A program made the position numbers and the translations under genes. The notes beneath the pieces are model-generated. The model was given only the letters and a program-made list of their open reading frames with translations. It ran no database searches and was not told the DNA's origin. 38,599 nucleotides of DNA from a virus (taxonomy: Duplodnaviria; Caudoviricetes): positions 1 to 38,599 of the IMG/VR virus record IMGVR_UViG_3300032225_000947. One strand, written 5' to 3'. Numbering within the stretch: the first letter of the stretch is position 1; every line of letters starts with the position of its first letter. This document shows, in pieces, positions 1,402-19,127 of this stretch.

Positions 1402-2548
1402 CGCGGGTTCGACTGTTCCGCAGGCTTCTTCGGCCAGGTTGGTGTGGGAGTCGGGGGTGAAATATAACCCTGACGGCACGCAGACGGTGACGTTGCCTGA
1501 GTGCCCTGAGATCGCCCCTGAAGGCTATTTAGAGGCTCTTGAAGGGTTTCTTGGTGTTATTCCTGCTGGTTACAGTTTCCGGCTCACTGAGGCCCGTCAC
1601 GATCCTGCCGCATGGCATAGGGATGGTGAGGGTGAGGATGCTGTCACAAGACCTATTTGGCGTTACAAGTTCCAGATTTTCCCTGACCACAACAAGATAC
1701 CTGTTGATGATCTGTTAGGGAATCTTCGTAAGCCGCGTGATATCAAACCGGTATCAGATACGGCTGGTGCGCTTTTAGTATGTGCCGGCGATTTACAGAT
1801 TGGGAAAAGCGATGGGGCGGGAACACCGGGAACAGTTGATAGGTTCATGGAAGCGCACCGCGCTAGCCTTAAACGCTATAGCGAGCTGCGTCGTCGTGGT
1901 GTTGTGGATGACGTGGTACTTGTGTGGGCCGGAGATTGCATTGAAGGGTCAGAAACGCAAGGCTCCAAACTTTTGGCGCGCTTGGATTGCACGATCACGG
2001 AAATGGTTCGCATCTACCGGCGGCTAATGCTTGAGCAGGTACAGGACTTCGCGCGCATTGCGTCTAAGGTTCTTGTGGCCGTGGTGCCCGGTAACCATGA
2101 TGAAGCGAAGCGTGTGGGTGACCAGTTGGCTACGAGGTATGACGATTCTTGGGCGATTGAGGGTGCGAGTGCTGTCGCTGATGCTCTTCATGTGGGTGGT
2201 TATACAAACGTGGACTGGTTGTTCCCCGACACGGACGGCCTCGATGTTACGTTTGATGTGAAAGACACCCGTATTGGGGTGTTACATGGGCATCAGACGC
2301 GGGGCAAAATGGAAGCATGGCTGGGGGCTAAAGCGGTGCAACGCCTTGCAATTGGAACAGCAGATGTTGTTATTTCAGGGCATTACCATCATTTGAAGAT
2401 CACTCAGCTGGGGCCGACGACGCATGTGCAGATTCCTGCGATGGATTCGGGTTCAGTGTGGTGGGGGCATAAGGGTGGTTTGAATGCCCCACCAGGAATG
2501 GTGACGATGATTGTTAATGATGGTTGGCGGGGACTGGAGATTTTATGA
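1376..2548 (+). CDS. Calcineurin-like metallophosphoesterase (Mre11/SbcD-type fold)
   Basis: Motifs GDLQ, GDCIEG, GNHDE, HGH, GHYHH; GTG 1376 follows GGAAGGAG. Confidence 0.85.
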   Translation: MSLIQKLADAGSTVPQASSARLVWESGVKYNPDGTQTVTLPECPEIAPEGYLEALEGFLGVIPAGYSFRLTEARHDPAAWHRDGEGEDAVTRPIWRYKFQIFPDHNKIPVDDLLGNLRKPRDIKPVSDTAGALLVCAGDLQIGKSDGAGTPGTVDRFMEAHRASLKRYSELRRRGVVDDVVLVWAGDCIEGSETQGSKLLARLDCTITEMVRIYRRLMLEQVQDFARIASKVLVAVVPGNHDEAKRVGDQLATRYDDSWAIEGASAVADALHVGGYTNVDWLFPDTDGLDVTFDVKDTRIGVLHGHQTRGKMEAWLGAKAVQRLAIGTADVVISGHYHHLKITQLGPTTHVQIPAMDSGSVWWGHKGGLNAPPGMVTMIVNDGWRGLEIL

Positions 2549-2802
2549 GCCTGGAATCTGAGGCCGTGAAACTTATTAAGGGCGACCGGGGATTAACGTA
2601 TGGGACCCCTCAGGAAGGGTTAGGTCGGATTGCTCGGCTGTGGAGTGCCTACCTTGAACGCGAGTTAACGGTTGGTGATGTCGCTAGACTTATGGTGTTG
2701 CTGAAACTGGCAAGGGCGCAGGGCGGTTATTCTCACGATAGTTATGTTGACCTTGTTGCTTATGCTGTGATCGCGGAGGAATCTGATGGCCGTCCCCACT
2801 AA
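2545..2802 (+). CDS. DUF6378-like protein (nucleotide pyrophosphohydrolase-related)
   Basis: DRGLTYG.P...RIARLWSAYL...MVLLKLAR...DSYVDLVAYA; ATGA overlap with upstream stop. Confidence 0.75.
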   Translation: MSLESEAVKLIKGDRGLTYGTPQEGLGRIARLWSAYLERELTVGDVARLMVLLKLARAQGGYSHDSYVDLVAYAVIAEESDGRPH

Positions 2803-2992
2803 AGATGCAGTGATCCGTATCGGTTTTGGGATGCTGTATGTGCAGATTATGGCTGAGGGTCATGCCGGTAACCCTGATGTTTTGGATGATATGACTCGTC
2901 GGGCGATTACAGCTTTTAAGGAAGCTGCGACTGCCGTTGTGGAGTCGGGGTTGAATGAGGCAATCCTTGATGATGAAGAAGAAGTTGAATGA
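2786..2992 (+). CDS. Hypothetical protein with acidic C-terminus
   Basis: GGAGG RBS; fills the gap and is coupled to the next gene. Confidence 0.6.
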   Translation: MAVPTKDAVIRIGFGMLYVQIMAEGHAGNPDVLDDMTRRAITAFKEAATAVVESGLNEAILDDEEEVE

Positions 2993-4089
2993 CGGAGTAC
3001 CGTTATCTTTTTGCTGATTTGTTGACGAATCAGATTAAAGCCGAACTTCCTCTTTCCCAAGTGAGTTTCGGTCAGGAGTTGAATACTTCTGGATCATTTT
3101 CGGGGAAACTGCTGCTATCTGATTTGCGTGAGGCTGTTTACAGTATTGATACGGCTACGACTCCGGCGAGAACAGCCGTTTATGTGGATCGTGATGGAAC
3201 GATTGTGTGGGGAGGGGTGCTATGGAATCGTTCCTATGATTCGGCGTCTCAGTCTATGACGTTCACGGGCCGCGAGTTTGAGTCTTATTTTGAGCGCCGG
3301 CGTATCAATTTCACTTATAACTCGGCCCAAGCTTCGCAGGATCAGCTTCTTGTCGTGCAGAACTTGTTTAACACTGTTCAGGGTAGTGCTGGCAGTAGTA
3401 CCAATATTGGTGTTCAGGTGGGTACTGAGACTTCGGGAGTGAGTGTTACGAAGTATTACAACTATTACGATTTGAAGCCTTTGACTGAGGCTGTGTATGA
3501 GTTGTCGCGTTCAACTACGGGGTTTGACTGGAATATTGATGTTGCATACGACTCGTCGTACAACATTATTAAGACTTTGCATTTGGAGTATCCGCGTCGT
3601 GGCATCGTGTACGGGGTTAACGATACTTATGATCCGGTGCTTGAGTTCCCTGGCAACATCATTGCCTACACTTATCCTGAAGAAGGCTTCCAAGTAGCAA
3701 ACACCCTGTATGGCATTGGTGCGGGTCAGACCATTGGCAAACTGATTTCTGTTCAACAGGACGCTACCCAGATAACTAATGGTTGGCCGACACTTGAAGG
3801 ATCAGTTTCCTACACGGATTACGACTACCAGCCGTTGCTCGATAACCTGACATTGGCACAGTTGAACGCTACGAAGAATCCTGTTGTGGTGATGCAGGTT
3901 GTTACTACTTCTTACAATGAGCCGATTCTTGGTTCTTATAAAACTGGTGATGATTTCCGTATCAGGATTACTGATGACAGATTTCCAACAACATTGGATG
4001 TGATTCGCCGTTTGGCGAAGTACGAAGTTCAGGTTGGGGATAATGGTCCTGAGCGTGTCACGTTCTCTTTTGTTGTTACGACTAACTAG
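2989..4089 (+). CDS. Minor tail/baseplate hub protein (siphovirus Gp37-like)
   Basis: YRYLFADLLT...AELPLSQVSF...LN.SGSFSG, VDRDGTIVWGG and GDDFRIRITD, typical of actinophage minor tail proteins. Confidence 0.75.
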   Translation: MTEYRYLFADLLTNQIKAELPLSQVSFGQELNTSGSFSGKLLLSDLREAVYSIDTATTPARTAVYVDRDGTIVWGGVLWNRSYDSASQSMTFTGREFESYFERRRINFTYNSAQASQDQLLVVQNLFNTVQGSAGSSTNIGVQVGTETSGVSVTKYYNYYDLKPLTEAVYELSRSTTGFDWNIDVAYDSSYNIIKTLHLEYPRRGIVYGVNDTYDPVLEFPGNIIAYTYPEEGFQVANTLYGIGAGQTIGKLISVQQDATQITNGWPTLEGSVSYTDYDYQPLLDNLTLAQLNATKNPVVVMQVVTTSYNEPILGSYKTGDDFRIRITDDRFPTTLDVIRRLAKYEVQVGDNGPERVTFSFVVTTN

Positions 4090-5001: not shown

Positions 5002-5538
5002 ATGGGTACTTCACTTAATGGTTGGCCTGCGATCACTCCGGCTCTTGCCCCCGTGCGGTTGCGGACTATCACGATTCCGGGCACGAACAGGACGATCCGG
5101 TTGGCTAAAGGATCTGCTGCACTATTCGCTGCATTTCTTTCCGATTGGAACGAGGAGATGCCTGCCCGATTAAAACTGGATAAGGGTCCGGTGGATGGGT
5201 GGAATTACCGTCAGGCTCGCGCTGCTGACGGTTTTTCGAACCATGCTTCAGGTACGGCGTGCGATGTTAGATATGACGTGTTGAAGGCTGATGACAAGCA
5301 ACATATGACGAAGGCTGAGACCGATACGCTAAAGCGTATCCTCGCTCGTTACGTCACGGCAGACGGTCACCACGTCATCGCTAACGGATACGCGTGGGGA
5401 AAGTGCGATGAGATGCATTCGGAACTCAGTCAGGCTTGGGATCACAAGAACGGCGCGTTGCGCAACACGCAACAGAAAGACGTGGACGAAGTGATCGCCC
5501 GTTTGCATATTGACAAGAACGGTGTTCGCCCGAAGTGA
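5002..5538 (+). CDS. Endolysin, peptidase M15 family (catalytic domain only)
   Basis: S.NGWPA start; GWNYR...SNHASGTACD...DEMHSE Zn-peptidase motifs. Confidence 0.85.
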   Translation: MGTSLNGWPAITPALAPVRLRTITIPGTNRTIRLAKGSAALFAAFLSDWNEEMPARLKLDKGPVDGWNYRQARAADGFSNHASGTACDVRYDVLKADDKQHMTKAETDTLKRILARYVTADGHHVIANGYAWGKCDEMHSELSQAWDHKNGALRNTQQKDVDEVIARLHIDKNGVRPK

Positions 5539-6584
5539 GCGTAGGGTTCGCTACCTACGACCTGAACACGTCTGTTAGTCCGCCGATACCTGGTGGGTGT
5601 GCTTTTTACCGGCTGTTCCTTCCGATGTCTACTATTTTTGACACTCAAACTTTAATGGGTGTGCCGGCTTGGGAATCTGAATCGGGTTTCGGTATTAGAA
5701 CGGGTCAGGGTAGGGCTGCTTTCGGGTTTGACACGATGGTCATTAAAGGACTTATGGCCCGTAATACTTTGATTCAAGTGCGTGCCGCTCAAGCTTTGGG
5801 TCAGCGGATTGTGGTTGATGTTGACGATTTTTATGATGGTTTGACTGAAGCGAATGTGGCGCACAAGTTCACTGATCCTGAGTTCAACAAGATTATGAAC
5901 CGGGATTTTCTTAGGGATGTTATCCAGGCAGCTGATGTGGTGACTGTTTCTACGCAGTTTTTGAAAGATTATTACGATGAGATTCATCCTGATGTGAGGC
6001 TTATTCGTAATGCTATTGATTTAAAGTTTTTTCAGAAGAGAAAAGTTTTGAATGTAAAGAAACCTGTACTTGGATGGGTTGGGGCTGTTCCTTGGCGCTC
6101 GAATGATTTAGAAACTTTGAGGTCTTGGTTGCCTGATTTTCTTGATAAGCATGACTTGATGTTTCACCATTCTGGTCATCGGGATGATTCCACGTCGTTT
6201 GCTGAGTTGGCTGGGATTGATCCGTCTCGTGTTACTACTTCTCCTCAGATGCCAATCTTCCAGTATTTTCAGGAAGCGTTTTGTTTTGATATTGGGATTG
6301 TGCCGTTGAATGACATTCCGTTTAATCACGCTAAGAGTTGTATTAAGGGTTTGGAGTATGCAGCTTCTGGTATCCCGTTTGTGGCACAAGGTCTCCCTGA
6401 GTACCAACAGTTGATGGACGATGGGATTGGTAGATGCGCGTGGGAACCGGAAGATTGGGTTTCACACCTTGAGGACTTGTTGGACTACAAGACTCGGAAG
6501 CGTGAGGCAGCCCGGAATCACGCACTACTATCGCGGCACGTTATTAGTGAGCGTGACTGGTCGTTCCTGAGCAAGGAAACCTGA
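5535..6584 (+). CDS. Glycosyltransferase, GT-B fold (GT4-like)
   Basis: GGCAFYR, VVDVDD, ADVVTVST, GIVPL...FNHAKSCIKGLEYAASGIPFVA. Confidence 0.85.
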   Translation: MSVGFATYDLNTSVSPPIPGGCAFYRLFLPMSTIFDTQTLMGVPAWESESGFGIRTGQGRAAFGFDTMVIKGLMARNTLIQVRAAQALGQRIVVDVDDFYDGLTEANVAHKFTDPEFNKIMNRDFLRDVIQAADVVTVSTQFLKDYYDEIHPDVRLIRNAIDLKFFQKRKVLNVKKPVLGWVGAVPWRSNDLETLRSWLPDFLDKHDLMFHHSGHRDDSTSFAELAGIDPSRVTTSPQMPIFQYFQEAFCFDIGIVPLNDIPFNHAKSCIKGLEYAASGIPFVAQGLPEYQQLMDDGIGRCAWEPEDWVSHLEDLLDYKTRKREAARNHALLSRHVISERDWSFLSKET

Positions 6585-7040: not shown

Positions 7041-7262
7041 ATGTGGTGGGAGAGGGCGTCTTGTGCTGGTGTGGATGTAAATGTGTTTTTTCCCACAGAC
7101 GGCGACACGGCACAAGCAAAACGGATTTGTTCTACTTGTGCCGTGCGACCGGAATGTCTGAATTTTGCTAGACAGACGGGGACTCGTCATGGTGTGTGGG
7201 GAGGGGCTTCTTTAGACGCGCTTCCCTGTGGTGCCGCAAGCCTTCCACTTCAGCACGACTAA
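7041..7262 (+). CDS. whiB: WhiB-family Fe-S transcription factor
   Basis: W.ERASC...FFP...AKRICSTCAVRPECL...GVWGG. Confidence 0.92.
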   Translation: MWWERASCAGVDVNVFFPTDGDTAQAKRICSTCAVRPECLNFARQTGTRHGVWGGASLDALPCGAASLPLQHD

Positions 7263-8447: not shown

Positions 8448-8587
8448 TTCGGCATGGGGGGCCATTGCGCTGGGCGCTGATCTTTTTCTTTCGCACATCC
8501 ACCGCAGTCTGTTGACCACCAGACTCCGTGTGAGCAGTAGGTTCCTACTCGGGCAAGGTTCTTTCGGTATTCCCATACATCATTCAT
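8444..8587 (-). CDS. 47-aa Cys/His protein (MNDVWEYRKNLARVGTYCSHGVWWSTDCGGCAKE...), not in the ORF track
   Basis: Read by hand; overlaps both neighbours by coupled start/stop codons; CxH...CxxC. Confidence 0.6.
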   Translation of the reverse strand: MNDVWEYRKNLARVGTYCSHGVWWSTDCGGCAKEKDQRPAQWPPMPK

Positions 8588-9110
8588 GTGTTAGTCCCCA
8601 GAAGTAGAGATCGTGCGCGACCTCATTAACAGTGAATTCGTGTTCGCGGAACATTTCTTTTAATGGCATAACTGAAGTGAAGTCTTCAACAGTCAGGTTT
8701 TTGTAGTAGTCCCATCGCCCTACAGTGAAGGGGGAACACCACGGGTCTTGGCGGCTTGTTCCATGCTCGGGTCGACCCTCGCCGGCACAAGTAAAGACCA
8801 CTAAACCTTTAGACATTCGATGCATGTTTATGAATGTTTGTACCCAGTAGGGGTTGTGTTCAAAGCATTCAGCGCTGATGGTGATGTCAAAGCTGCGGTC
8901 GGGGTAGTCAAGGTCTTGGCCGGGAGATATGACATCTACACCGGGGCCTGGTTCTAGATCTACTCCGGTGTAGTCGCAGTTGGTGAAGTAGTCGCGGAGT
9001 GTGCCATTGATGTTGAGGCTTCCGATTTCTAGGACTTTCACGTCTTGGAAGTATTGGGGGAAGCGTTCTTTAATGCTGGTGATGTATTCCTGTTGTTCGC
9101 GGTGGCTCAT
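8580..9110 (-). CDS. Class I SAM-dependent methyltransferase (small-molecule/glycan type)
   Basis: VLEIGS.NINGT...YTGVD...GPGVDV...FDITISAECFEHNPYW. Confidence 0.85.
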   Translation of the reverse strand: MSHREQQEYITSIKERFPQYFQDVKVLEIGSLNINGTLRDYFTNCDYTGVDLEPGPGVDVISPGQDLDYPDRSFDITISAECFEHNPYWVQTFINMHRMSKGLVVFTCAGEGRPEHGTSRQDPWCSPFTVGRWDYYKNLTVEDFTSVMPLKEMFREHEFTVNEVAHDLYFWGLTHE

Positions 9111-9502
9111 GGTTTCTCTCCGTCCATAATCATCATCCCGATGTAGTGAGCAACGTTCACTGTCACCGCATTACCCATCTGCTTGTAACGGTTAGAGTCG
9201 GCTTGTCCAGCAGTCCAATTGTCTGGGAAGCCTTGTAGCCTTTCGCACTCTAATGGAGTGAGCCTACGAACTCCTTGACTATTCATTGCGGCCATCCCCC
9301 CCCCTCCAGTGCGTAGTGTTGGTGTGACAGATTCTGATGCTTGTATATCTAATCCTTGAGTGTGACTGAAAGTAATAATTACTGTCGCGCGTGTCTCCGT
9401 AGCGTTATCAAAGGCGTTCAATGTTGGACTCACCCCCCCCCGCACCCATGTCTCATGGTCTTCATCACTCATGGCTCTTCGTGATTTCGTCCACACGTCC
9501 AT
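9107..9502 (-). CDS. C5 DNA methyltransferase C-terminal subunit (TRD-like cassettes plus motifs IX-X)
   Basis: RRLTPLECERLQGFP (IX) and YKQMGNAV (X); SPTL/TPTL cassettes; own GGGGAG RBS. Confidence 0.85.
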   Translation of the reverse strand: MDVWTKSRRAMSDEDHETWVRGGVSPTLNAFDNATETRATVIITFSHTQGLDIQASESVTPTLRTGGGGMAAMNSQGVRRLTPLECERLQGFPDNWTAGQADSNRYKQMGNAVTVNVAHYIGMMIMDGEKP

Positions 9503-10376
9503 TTGTCTCCCCGATGATTAGCATGTCGTTGTAGGCGTCCTGCCCGTTGTATGAGCCGGGGTGTGCGCCAGCTGTGAACGTTCCGACTGTTGCCTGGTAA
9601 GTACGAGAGATTCCGTGTCGGGGTCGTAACGTATCCCGGTTCCGGTTGTCACGGTGCTGGCTACTTCTTGCATGCTGCTGCTGCTCGCCAGTCTCTCTCT
9701 CTCTCTCTGCTATTACTAAGTGATTGGCTTGTCCGGCATTGTCGTCAGGACCACCGCTTCCAAAGCCCTTTGTAAGGCTTCCGGCAATGTCCGACCGCGC
9801 CGGTTGGCGCGCCTCAAGATGCCTTGGCACGCCCTCGCGCTCAAGAAATAACGCTCGTCCACTGTCTCCTCCAGAACGTCCGATAATGAACAAGCGACGG
9901 CGGCGTTGGGGGACTCCGAAGAACTGCGAATCCAGAACCCTCCACTCGAGGTGGCTATACCCTGCGTCGGCCAACGCAGTGAGGATGACTCCGAAATCGC
10001 GCCCTCCGTTGCTTGATAGAAGTCCTGGCACATTCTCCAAGACGATGAGTCGCGCTTGGACATGGGACGCGAAAGAGAGTGCGTCCCAGAACAAGCCAGT
10101 TCGTTCCCCAGCAAGACCTGCACGTCTTCCTGCGACGGATACGTCTTGGCAGGGGAATCCTCCGCAAACAAGGTCGGTTCTTCCCACGAGGCCCAGCTCA
10201 TCGGCCCACTCCTTCGCTGTTGTTACGTCATCGTGTTTAGGTACTTTTGGCCAGTGCTTTTCTAGGATTGCGCGAGCGTTTTTATCTATTTCTACTTGGC
10301 CGAGGCAGGTCATTCCTGCTTGCTCAAAGCCGAGGTCAAAGCCTCCAACTCCTGCGAATAGGCTGACGAATCTCAT
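9465..10376 (-). CDS. C5 DNA methyltransferase N-terminal catalytic subunit (motifs I-VIII)
   Basis: FAGVGG (I), GGFPCQD (IV), ENVPG (VI), PQRRRRLF (VIII); lacks IX-X. Confidence 0.9.
   Translation of the reverse strand: MRFVSLFAGVGGFDLGFEQAGMTCLGQVEIDKNARAILEKHWPKVPKHDDVTTAKEWADELGLVGRTDLVCGGFPCQDVSVAGRRAGLAGERTGLFWDALSFASHVQARLIVLENVPGLLSSNGGRDFGVILTALADAGYSHLEWRVLDSQFFGVPQRRRRLFIIGRSGGDSGRALFLEREGVPRHLEARQPARSDIAGSLTKGFGSGGPDDNAGQANHLVIAERERETGEQQQHARSSQHRDNRNRDTLRPRHGISRTYQATVGTFTAGAHPGSYNGQDAYNDMLIIGETNGRVDEITKSHE
9518..9673 (-). CDS. Out-of-frame 51-codon TRD-like cassette (MQEVASTVTTGTGIRYDPDTESLVL...)
   Basis: Read by hand in the +1 frame just downstream of the (AG)8 tract; resembles the in-frame cassettes. 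Confidence 0.4.
   Translation of the reverse strand: MQEVASTVTTGTGIRYDPDTESLVLTRQQSERSQLAHTPAHTTGRTPTTTC
9692..9708. repeat. (AG)8A microsatellite in the MTase variable region
   Basis: tctctctctctctctct on + strand, encoding ERERE. Confidence 0.9.
9716..10201 (-). CDS. Nested alternative-frame protein inside the MTase gene, resembling the M.EcoHK31I beta polypeptide
   Basis: 161 stop-free codons in the +1 frame; SLRWPTQG...CSLSDVLE...YFLSARACQGILRRA.RRG..LP..L pattern (resemblance recalled, not searched). Confidence 0.65.
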   Translation of the reverse strand: MSWASWEEPTLFAEDSPAKTYPSQEDVQVLLGNELACSGTHSLSRPMSKRDSSSWRMCQDFYQATEGAISESSSLRWPTQGIATSSGGFWIRSSSESPNAAVACSLSDVLEETVDERYFLSARACQGILRRANRRGRTLPEALQRALEAVVLTTMPDKPIT

Positions 10377-18775: not shown

Positions 18776-19127
18776 CGGGCCACGCTCCAGACGTATCCGT
18801 AGCGTGCTGCCAAGCGTGCGCGCTTCGCAGTGTGTGCGCGTAGGTCAATCTTCATTGCCTCTCCCCACATTGTCGGTTGCCACGTGTGTGGCATGGGGAA
18901 AGTGTAGCCCCCGTCAAGGGTAGGGGGATACCATGTCAAGGACCAAACACATTGCAACTTGATAACGGAATATCCACAAGCTGTCCCCCTAGCACGTCCC
19001 CCCAACCTGGCCCGAAAGAACTACCGGGAATTCCCACAATCCCGATAGGAAAAGCCGGCGCGCATTAGGGGGGGGTATATTTCCTATTCGTGTGGGAATC
19101 GGTCCCTAACGGTTTGGGGTGTGTGTG

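What the first reader, a model, noticed from the sequence alone, without database searches (positions are those of the whole stretch)
9518..9780. (AG)8 tract could toggle between alternative TRD cassettes
Seen: the variable region holds short TRD-like units. In frame are IAGSLTKGFGSGGPDDNAGQANHLV and VGTFTAGAHPGSYNGQDAYNDMLI. In the +1 frame between them is VASTVTTGTGIRYDPDTESLV. The (AG)8A tract at 9692-9708 lies just before the out-of-frame unit. Gaining one AG (or losing two) would fuse the catalytic chain to that unit and stop at 9518, dropping the other. Motifs IX-X are on a separate chain, so the enzyme core would survive. Known: Bacillus phage multispecific C5 MTases stack TRDs, and simple repeats drive bacterial phasevarions. 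Inference: slippage switches target specificity rather than on/off, hedging against varied host restriction systems.
Basis: partly seen in the sequence, partly recalled or inferred. Interest (0 to 1): 0.85.

Follow-up and report, generated by a model that had tools for sequence, protein, structure and literature searches.

The report
Repeat tract swaps phage methylase cassettes
A slippery AG repeat in this phage's DNA cytosine methylase gene sets which of two DNA-reading-like cassettes, written in different reading frames, is joined to the enzyme; near-identical related phages carry all three settings, so the repeat likely switches which sequences the phage methylates to dodge host restriction enzymes.

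Summary
Observation confirmed; interpretation largely supported. The (AG)8A tract (9692-9708) is the only long dinucleotide repeat in a complete 38.6-kb phage. It sits in the catalytic chain of a split C5 methyltransferase, before cassette A (+1 frame) and cassette B (in frame). A is conserved in its own frame (27/31 residues against L001) and occurs in frame in single-chain methylases. A close relative (162/178 core identity) has A fused. Relatives show three states: A, B or neither. One 12-member cluster splits 5/3/4 over six tract lengths; L162 and L170 differ by one repeat unit only. Cultured cluster J mycobacteriophages have the same three-state layout on a G8/G9/G10 run, so it is testable. 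Not shown: variation of this phage's own tract (only contigs available) and any change of methylated motif. This scan noted repeat-switched modules in other phage methylases before; nine literature searches found no description of the either/or layout.

The parts
9465..10376 (-). Catalytic (alpha) chain of a C5 DNA methyltransferase, motifs I-VIII, then unit 1, the AG tract, a frameshifted linker and unit B (303 aa)
   Evidence: PF00145 E 4.7e-50; phrog_116; translation
9716..10201 (-). Overlapping +1-frame gene (161 aa), likely a third subunit supplying the L-x-[DE]-[IV]-LE..[YF]-LS segment that single-chain enzymes carry after motif VIII
   Evidence: Motif found in 54 of 79 loci, always +1 frame and open for at least 111 codons upstream; homologue of phage MM1 orf14, annotated beta subunit, E 1e-15; weak match to SPbeta MtbP 234-273; complex score 0.77 vs best control 0.21; SD -7.6 kcal/mol
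9711..9788 (-). Unit 1, TRD-like cassette kept in all three states
   Evidence: In frame in single-chain homologues P0037-P0060
9692..9708 (-). (AG)8A slippage tract, the switch
   Evidence: AG, CT, CA or G tracts at the equivalent place in relatives
9599..9691 (-). Unit A, TRD-like cassette in the +1 frame; read here only as a frameshifted linker
   Evidence: 15 of 19 differences to L001 at third positions of its own frame; 27/31 vs 15/30 residues; in frame in P0176, P0181, P0178, P0182
9661..9663 (-). Stop (TAG) of the third frame: state with neither A nor B
   Evidence: same state seen in L162, P0065, P0080-82, P0087, P0028
9513..9587 (-). Unit B, TRD-like cassette fused in the present state; no ATG/GTG/TTG of its own between tract and unit
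   Evidence: in frame in many single-chain methylases
9518..9520 (-). Stop (TAA) of the unit-A frame
   Evidence: P0182 ends with the same tail
9107..9502 (-). Separate closing (gamma) chain: two further TRD-like units, then motifs IX and X (131 aa)
   Evidence: PF00145 259-322; SD -7.6 kcal/mol
9433..9441 (-). G9 run inside the first unit of the gamma chain; second candidate switch
   Evidence: Equivalent run off frame in 6 of 26 distinct loci; 2 bases shorter in one contig of depth 2.6 (may be an error)
9296..9304 (-). G9 run just before motif IX, followed by in-frame ATGs at 9295 and 9286 with a strong SD-like match
   Evidence: variation of this run not observed

Best explanation
The AG tract is a three-position frameshift switch in a split phage C5 DNA methyltransferase: its length sets whether cassette A, cassette B or neither is joined to the catalytic chain, all three settings occur in near-identical relatives, and this likely changes the sequences that are methylated. 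Shown from sequence: at 8 units the ribosome reads A's DNA as a stop-free linker and reaches B; at 9 or 6 units it would read A and stop before making B; at 7 it would stop after unit 1. Motifs IX-X and the post-motif-VIII segment lie on separate ORFs, so no setting removes a catalytic motif. Inferred: replication slippage changes the tract reversibly; the three chains assemble into one enzyme (predicted by the model); each cassette is a TL-type recognition loop that adds one target; mixed progeny hedge against different host restriction enzymes, and perhaps against methyl-dependent ones.
For: Tract not chance. A is under purifying selection in its own frame although out of frame here and is in frame in single-chain enzymes. 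P0182 (162/178 core identity) has the same A and tail fused through an AG tract. Mixed states in 7 of 10 multi-member protein clusters; cluster 4 has A 5, B 3, neither 4 of 12, cores 193-195/195 identical, six tract lengths. L162 and L170 match over 1383 columns with 0 mismatches and one CT unit of difference, giving neither vs B. Different repeat units (AG, CT, CA, G) occupy the same position. The frame to the second unit is open across the first in 10 of 10 hand-picked cases; the third frame has a stop in 9 of 10. Repeats lie between motifs VIII and IX in 36 of 70 split vs 1 of 33 single-chain loci; 1.38 per kb vs 0.07 in flanks. In 14 cultured cluster J mycobacteriophages: first unit 3, second unit 8, neither 2, gene broken upstream 1. 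A unit of this array type aligns with the M.HhaI TLSAYGGG loop.
Against: No allele variation of this phage's own tract was seen: the source run gives one contig at depth 53.5, no other run covers the tract, and contigs drop rare variants. No methylation motif is known for any unit. Units A and B are about 25-30 residues, shorter than the roughly 40-residue Bacillus phage TRDs (recalled). Unit A had no hit among 69 single-chain variable regions, and only 5 of 21 split loci had two frames hitting that library. 3 of 10 clusters showed one state only. A Met precedes unit A in 50 of 52 proteins, which fits a separate start. Most cluster states are read from proteins, not DNA. The split-vs-single count is partly circular (an off-frame tract makes a locus split) and the loci are related.
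Confidence: 0.68

Rival explanations
1. The cassettes are small separately translated subunits that work in trans. The tract changes only which one is covalently attached, so it tunes amounts rather than choosing either A or B.
For: Met before unit A in 50 of 52 proteins; the third-frame stop lies about 10 bases after that ATG, a geometry that allows re-initiation; larger arrays (L088, L091) hold many units in separate short ORFs; earlier scan notes describe TRD mini-genes (unchecked).
Against: The SD match before A's ATG is weak (-2.7 kcal/mol vs -7.6 for the beta and gamma starts). Unit B has no start codon of its own in this window, so it can be made only as a fusion. The frame to the second unit is kept open, which a free peptide would not need.
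Confidence: 0.15
2. The switch is real, but the cassettes change activity or stability (strong, weak or off) rather than the target sequence; specificity comes from unit 1 and the gamma chain.
For: Units are short; no motif is assigned; in cluster J the G10 state leaves the catalytic chain with no complete unit; the gamma-chain G run is off frame in 6 of 26 loci, which looks like on/off.
Against: Two different conserved cassettes in two frames are not needed for on/off; both occur as ordinary in-frame units in single-chain enzymes; sequence recognition in C5 methylases resides in this region (PMC3404938, passage).
Confidence: 0.12
3. Length differences are sequencing or assembly stutter, or neutral decay of a collapsing gene; the locus has one true frame.
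For: Repeats are error-prone in short-read data (established knowledge); many contigs are short and shallow; the window's own tract shows no variant.
Against: Stutter does not explain selection on A in its own frame, balanced states over six lengths, the same three states in cultured phage genomes, or four repeat types at one position.
Confidence: 0.05

Closest known systems
Multispecific C5 methyltransferases of Bacillus phages (SPbeta MtbP fetched here; SPR, phi3T, H2 as cited in PMC8936443, passages)
   Same: Orphan phage C5 methylase with several short units in tandem between motifs VIII and IX; SPbeta units SPTLTTMGGG and FTVNTIDRHGV resemble units of this family (E about 1e-3 to P0127 and P0154).
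   Different: MtbP is one chain with all units in one frame. Here the enzyme is in three ORFs and two units are alternatives in different frames behind a repeat.
Repeat-switched specificity in bacterial R-M systems: NgoAV and other hsdS genes (PMC7383803, passages); H. pylori Type IIG JHP1272 and HP1353-54 (PMC3936762, passages)
   Same: Repeat length shifts the frame and yields an active enzyme of different specificity.
   Different: Those add or drop a C-terminal domain in one frame (short vs long product) in adenine methylases of bacteria. Here one stretch of DNA is a cassette in one frame and a linker to another cassette in a second frame, giving mutually exclusive modules, in a phage cytosine methylase.
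M.AquI and M.EcoHK31I, two-chain C5 methyltransferases (PMC3404938, PMC2836561, passages)
   Same: Split like M.AquI (I-VIII plus part of the variable region; rest plus IX-X); a second gene inside the first in another frame like M.EcoHK31I.
   Different: Both features together, giving three predicted chains. The nested gene lacks motif IX, which the EcoHK31I beta chain carries. Direct comparison with the EcoHK31I beta sequence was not run.
Phage contingency loci: T2 agt A-runs; poly-G in Fletchervirus receptor-binding genes and in a methylase gene of Bordetella phage BPP-1 (PMC12633550, part 1 of 6 and passages)
   Same: Reversible frameshifting repeats in phage genes, including DNA-modification genes, as a hedge against host defence.
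   Different: The agt case is on/off; the word 'specificity' does not occur in that text. Here the repeat chooses between alternative modules.

Membership tests
C5 DNA methyltransferase (PF00145) | Motifs I-X with catalytic PC and ENV | tested here: met
   I-VIII on 10376-9465 (GGFPCQD, ENVPG, PQRRRR), IX-X on 9502-9107
C5 DNA methyltransferase (PF00145) | Methyl transfer to cytosine C5 | not testable with these tools
   No activity data
Multispecific phage C5 methyltransferases (Bacillus type) | Several TRD-like units in tandem between motifs VIII and IX | tested here: inconclusive
   Five units by position; a unit of a relative aligns with the M.HhaI TL loop; weak similarity of SPbeta units to family members. 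The anchor-motif count (33 vs 2.5 shuffled) used a pattern written from the units seen, so it is partly circular.
Multispecific phage C5 methyltransferases (Bacillus type) | One polypeptide with all TRDs in frame | tested here: not met
   Three ORFs; unit A out of frame
Multispecific phage C5 methyltransferases (Bacillus type) | Each TRD confers its own target | not testable with these tools
   Needs methylome data
Simple-repeat contingency locus | Repeat inside a coding region whose length sets the frame | tested here: met
Simple-repeat contingency locus | Length varies among otherwise near-identical genomes | tested here: met
   Met in relatives; not seen for the window's own tract
Simple-repeat contingency locus | High, reversible switching rate within a clone | not testable with these tools
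   No raw reads listed
M.AquI-type split methyltransferase | I-VIII and IX-X on separate chains that share the variable region | tested here: met
   Layout; definition from PMC3404938; alpha-gamma binding itself not scored
M.EcoHK31I-type heterodimer | Second subunit encoded in another frame inside the first gene | tested here: met
M.EcoHK31I-type heterodimer | The nested subunit carries motif IX, and motif X stays on alpha | tested here: not met
   The nested ORF stops at 9716 without motif IX; IX and X are both on the third ORF

The most novel reading that the evidence does not exclude
A widespread family of phage cytosine methylases encodes its target choice as a decision tree of slippage repeats: each repeat routes translation into one of several recognition cassettes written in different frames of the same DNA, while the catalytic parts sit on separate chains. 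One phage clone would thus release progeny with several distinct methylomes, and cluster J mycobacteriophages already in freezers are fixed in different states.
Probability: 0.6. Interest if true: 0.85.

Novelty: new variant of a known kind. Interest (0 to 1): 0.77.

Why it matters
It would give phages a heritable, reversible way to change their methylation pattern and so their host range against restriction systems, using dual-frame coding instead of inversion or recombination. It also means database annotations of these genes as broken or truncated record switch states. Cultured phages on a harmless laboratory host (Dove/Omega G8, Beem/Porcelain G9, NihilNomen/JuicyJay G10) allow a direct test by methylome sequencing, and would assign targets to very short recognition cassettes.

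Tried and rejected
Read-level allele counting: 6 runs listed, all contigs, no RNA holder listed; the source run shows one allele and no other run covers the AG tract. Pattern scan for unit A in viral contigs: 4 stretches, 2 real and already held as L002 and L001, 2 not methylase matches. Metagenome scan: 36 stretches, 3 methylase loci (L162, L170, L173); the rest unrelated (several look like aminotransferases, label recalled) or not read as the peptide. Unit A against 69 single-chain variable regions: no hit; found later by profile search, of whose 21 hits 9 were read. The window's own protein cluster has one member, and the gamma protein as I delimited it is not in the collection. Idea that split loci keep a rescue Met before motif IX: 21 of 59 split vs 7 of 32 single-chain, no clear difference. 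Start/stop overlaps before unit B in relatives were set aside, because almost any TGA stop creates one in the -1 frame. A fold of P0181 had not finished and was not used. Programmed ribosomal frameshifting was not tested; DNA-level length differences make it unnecessary but do not exclude it.

Full report
Setting. The window is a complete 38,599-base virus record with direct terminal repeats and tailed-phage genes (terminase, portal, head, tail). The finding lies in a leftward block with an HNH and a RusA gene. The host was not determined.

Observation. The (AG)8A tract is at 9708-9692 on the - strand. It is the only dinucleotide run of five or more units in the genome, and 0 of 200 order-2 Markov simulations produced one of eight units. 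The only two 9-base homopolymers also lie in this locus. The catalytic ORF (10376-9465) carries motifs I-VIII, unit 1, the tract, a linker and unit B. Unit A lies in the +1 frame, which ends at TAA 9520-9518. Motifs IX-X are on ORF 9502-9107. By frame arithmetic 9 or 6 units give A, 8 gives B, and 7 gives a stop at 9663-9661 with neither.

Is unit A a real cassette? Against L001, 15 of 19 base differences fall on third positions of A's frame; 27 of 31 residues match in that frame and 15 of 30 in the frame now read. Unit A is fused in frame to the catalytic chain in L001 and L002, where B is out of frame, and in many database proteins. P0182, 162/178 identical in the core, has the window's A and the same tail fused through an AG tract. 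A had no hit in a small library of 69 single-chain variable regions. A profile search gave 21 hits, of which I read 9: A is the first unit after the motif VIII linker in the single-chain enzymes P0176 and P0181 and an internal unit of the IX-X-bearing P0178.

Does the tract vary? For this phage it could not be shown: all six listed runs are contigs, the source run has one allele at depth 53.5, and no other run covers the tract. In relatives it does. L162 and L170 align over 1383 columns with no mismatch and one CT unit of difference; one gives neither cassette, the other B, and P0018 with an identical core gives A. Of 19 clusters found in two look-ups, 9 were singletons and 10 had several members; 7 of the 10 hold mixed states and 3 hold A only. 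Cluster 4 has 12 members with cores 193-195/195 identical: A 5, B 3, neither 4, over six tract lengths. For cluster 3 only 15 of 37 members were listed. These cluster states are read from proteins. In clusters 3, 6 and 9 an earlier switch point inside unit 1, at a glycine run that is probably a G tract (inferred from proteins), diverts to a further cassette C, so switches can be nested. The repeat at the A/B position is AG, CT, CA or G in different lineages.

Family pattern. Of 163 loci examined, 29 lacked the motif anchors and 31 were duplicates. Among the 103 kept, a repeat lies between motifs VIII and IX in 36 of 70 split and 1 of 33 single-chain genes (Fisher p 4e-7), at 1.38 per kb against 0.07 in flanks. 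The loci are related and an off-frame tract itself makes a gene split, so this is indicative only. In 10 hand-picked two-cassette loci the frame that leads to the second cassette is open across the first in all 10 (chance per case 0.01-0.63 under synonymous recoding); the third frame has a stop in 9. Five of these share unit A and two are cluster J. In an automatic test, 5 of 21 split loci with a repeat in the catalytic tail had two frames matching single-chain enzymes, against 1 of 300 out-of-frame control peptides.

Cultured phages. The nested-gene search led to Mycobacterium phage Omega, whose gp127/gp128 has the same layout with a G run inside the first unit. One search listed 19 Mycobacterium records (17 phages); I fetched 14 phages. 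First unit in frame (G8): Omega, Dove, Bombitas. Second unit in frame: Porcelain, Lucky2013, Beem, Dallas, Schatzie, HokkenD, KashFlow (G9) and Hannaconda (G8 plus one base upstream). Neither (G10): NihilNomen, JuicyJay. Thibault has G6 and a gene broken further upstream. The cassettes differ from A and B; the second is a homologue of the window's unit 1. Passages of PMC3706429 and PMC11855218 did not mention this switch.

Why the core survives. The split matches M.AquI as described in PMC3404938 (passage). A +1-frame gene (10201-9716) lies inside the catalytic ORF. Its motif was found in 54 of 79 loci, always in the +1 frame and open for at least 111 codons. It is homologous to phage MM1 orf14, annotated as beta subunit, has matches in 268 phage and 540 plasmid records, and weakly matches a segment that SPbeta MtbP carries in chain. 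A three-chain model scored 0.77 against a best control of 0.21; that mark was reached by 116 of 157 solved complexes and 2 of 215 mismatched pairs, counts that hold only roughly here. The runs agree in at least 52% of contacts, partner pLDDT is at least 70, and the peptide touches alpha residues 117-179 and motif IX of the closing chain. This supports binding but does not show it, and may reflect likeness to solved single-chain methylases.

Are the units recognition domains? This is inferred. They lie between motifs VIII and IX, where C5 methylases recognise sequence. The last unit of single-chain relative P0037 aligns with the M.HhaI TLSAYGGG stretch (that this is a recognition loop is recalled). 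SPbeta units match family members weakly. No target is known for any unit.

Second switches. The G run at 9441-9433 in the closing chain is off frame in 6 of 26 distinct loci. In this window an ATG with a strong SD-like match follows the second G9 just before motif IX, so a shift might drop units rather than inactivate the enzyme; a rescue Met is not enriched across split loci.

Rivals. The strongest is that cassettes act as free peptides: a Met precedes A in 50 of 52 proteins and larger arrays hold units in separate short ORFs. Against it, A's start has a weak SD and B has no start in this window. An activity-only effect and assembly stutter are less likely.

Known systems. Repeat-driven changes of specificity are known in bacterial hsdS and H. 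pylori Type IIG genes, by adding or dropping a domain (PMC7383803, PMC3936762; passages). Tandem TRDs are known in Bacillus phage enzymes (PMC8936443, passages). Nested subunits are known from M.EcoHK31I (PMC2836561, passages). Phage contingency loci were described in PMC12633550 (part 1 of 6 and passages), which also cites poly-G in a BPP-1 methylase gene. Nine searches showed no paper on mutually exclusive out-of-frame cassettes in phage cytosine methylases; most were judged from listings, subscription journals are not covered, and no supplements were read. Earlier notes of this scan report repeat-switched modules and the nested gene in other phage methylases; they are unchecked and not counted as support. 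A look-up for the cluster J case found none.

Verdict. The switch architecture and its variation in relatives are well supported (about 0.9). That it changes target specificity in an either/or manner is likely (about 0.68). New variant of a known kind; interest 0.77.

Noticed in passing
L197 (Omega NC_004688.1) 1775-3079; L199-L211: Cluster J mycobacteriophage methylases carry a G8/G9/G10 run that selects the first unit, the second unit or neither; several also carry an HNH insertion in the same gene.
   Followed up: yes
window 9716-10201 (-): Conserved gene nested in the +1 frame of the methylase, predicted third subunit; fused to the cassettes in some database proteins (P0012, P0017, P0021).
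   Followed up: yes
window 9433-9441 and 9296-9304: Two G9 runs in the motif IX-X chain; the first is off frame in 6 of 26 related loci.
   Followed up: partly
proteins P0066-P0079, P0095-96, P0101, P0106, P0183: An upstream switch point inside unit 1 diverts to a third cassette (TLNSGGN..GFRTEPGEHLV), making nested switches.
   Followed up: partly
L088, L091, L089, L110, L116, L132, L133, L137: Longer methylase loci with three to five G or AG tracts and many units in alternating frames.
   Followed up: partly
L002 and L006, between the catalytic and IX-X ORFs: A short Cys-rich ORF (CEETC..CG.DIGPHHLC.DCLE) is inserted between the two chains; unexplained.
   Followed up: no
window 7041-7262 (+): Small four-Cys ORF that looks like a WhiB-family regulator (label recalled, not tested), which would hint at an actinobacterial host.
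   Followed up: no
window 8580-9110 (-): A second, class I SAM-dependent methyltransferase gene (Methyltransf_11) directly follows the DNA methylase; a glycosyltransferase lies at 5535-6584.
   Followed up: no
window 19068-19075: G8 run upstream of the terminase gene, the only other homopolymer of 8 or more bases.
   Followed up: no
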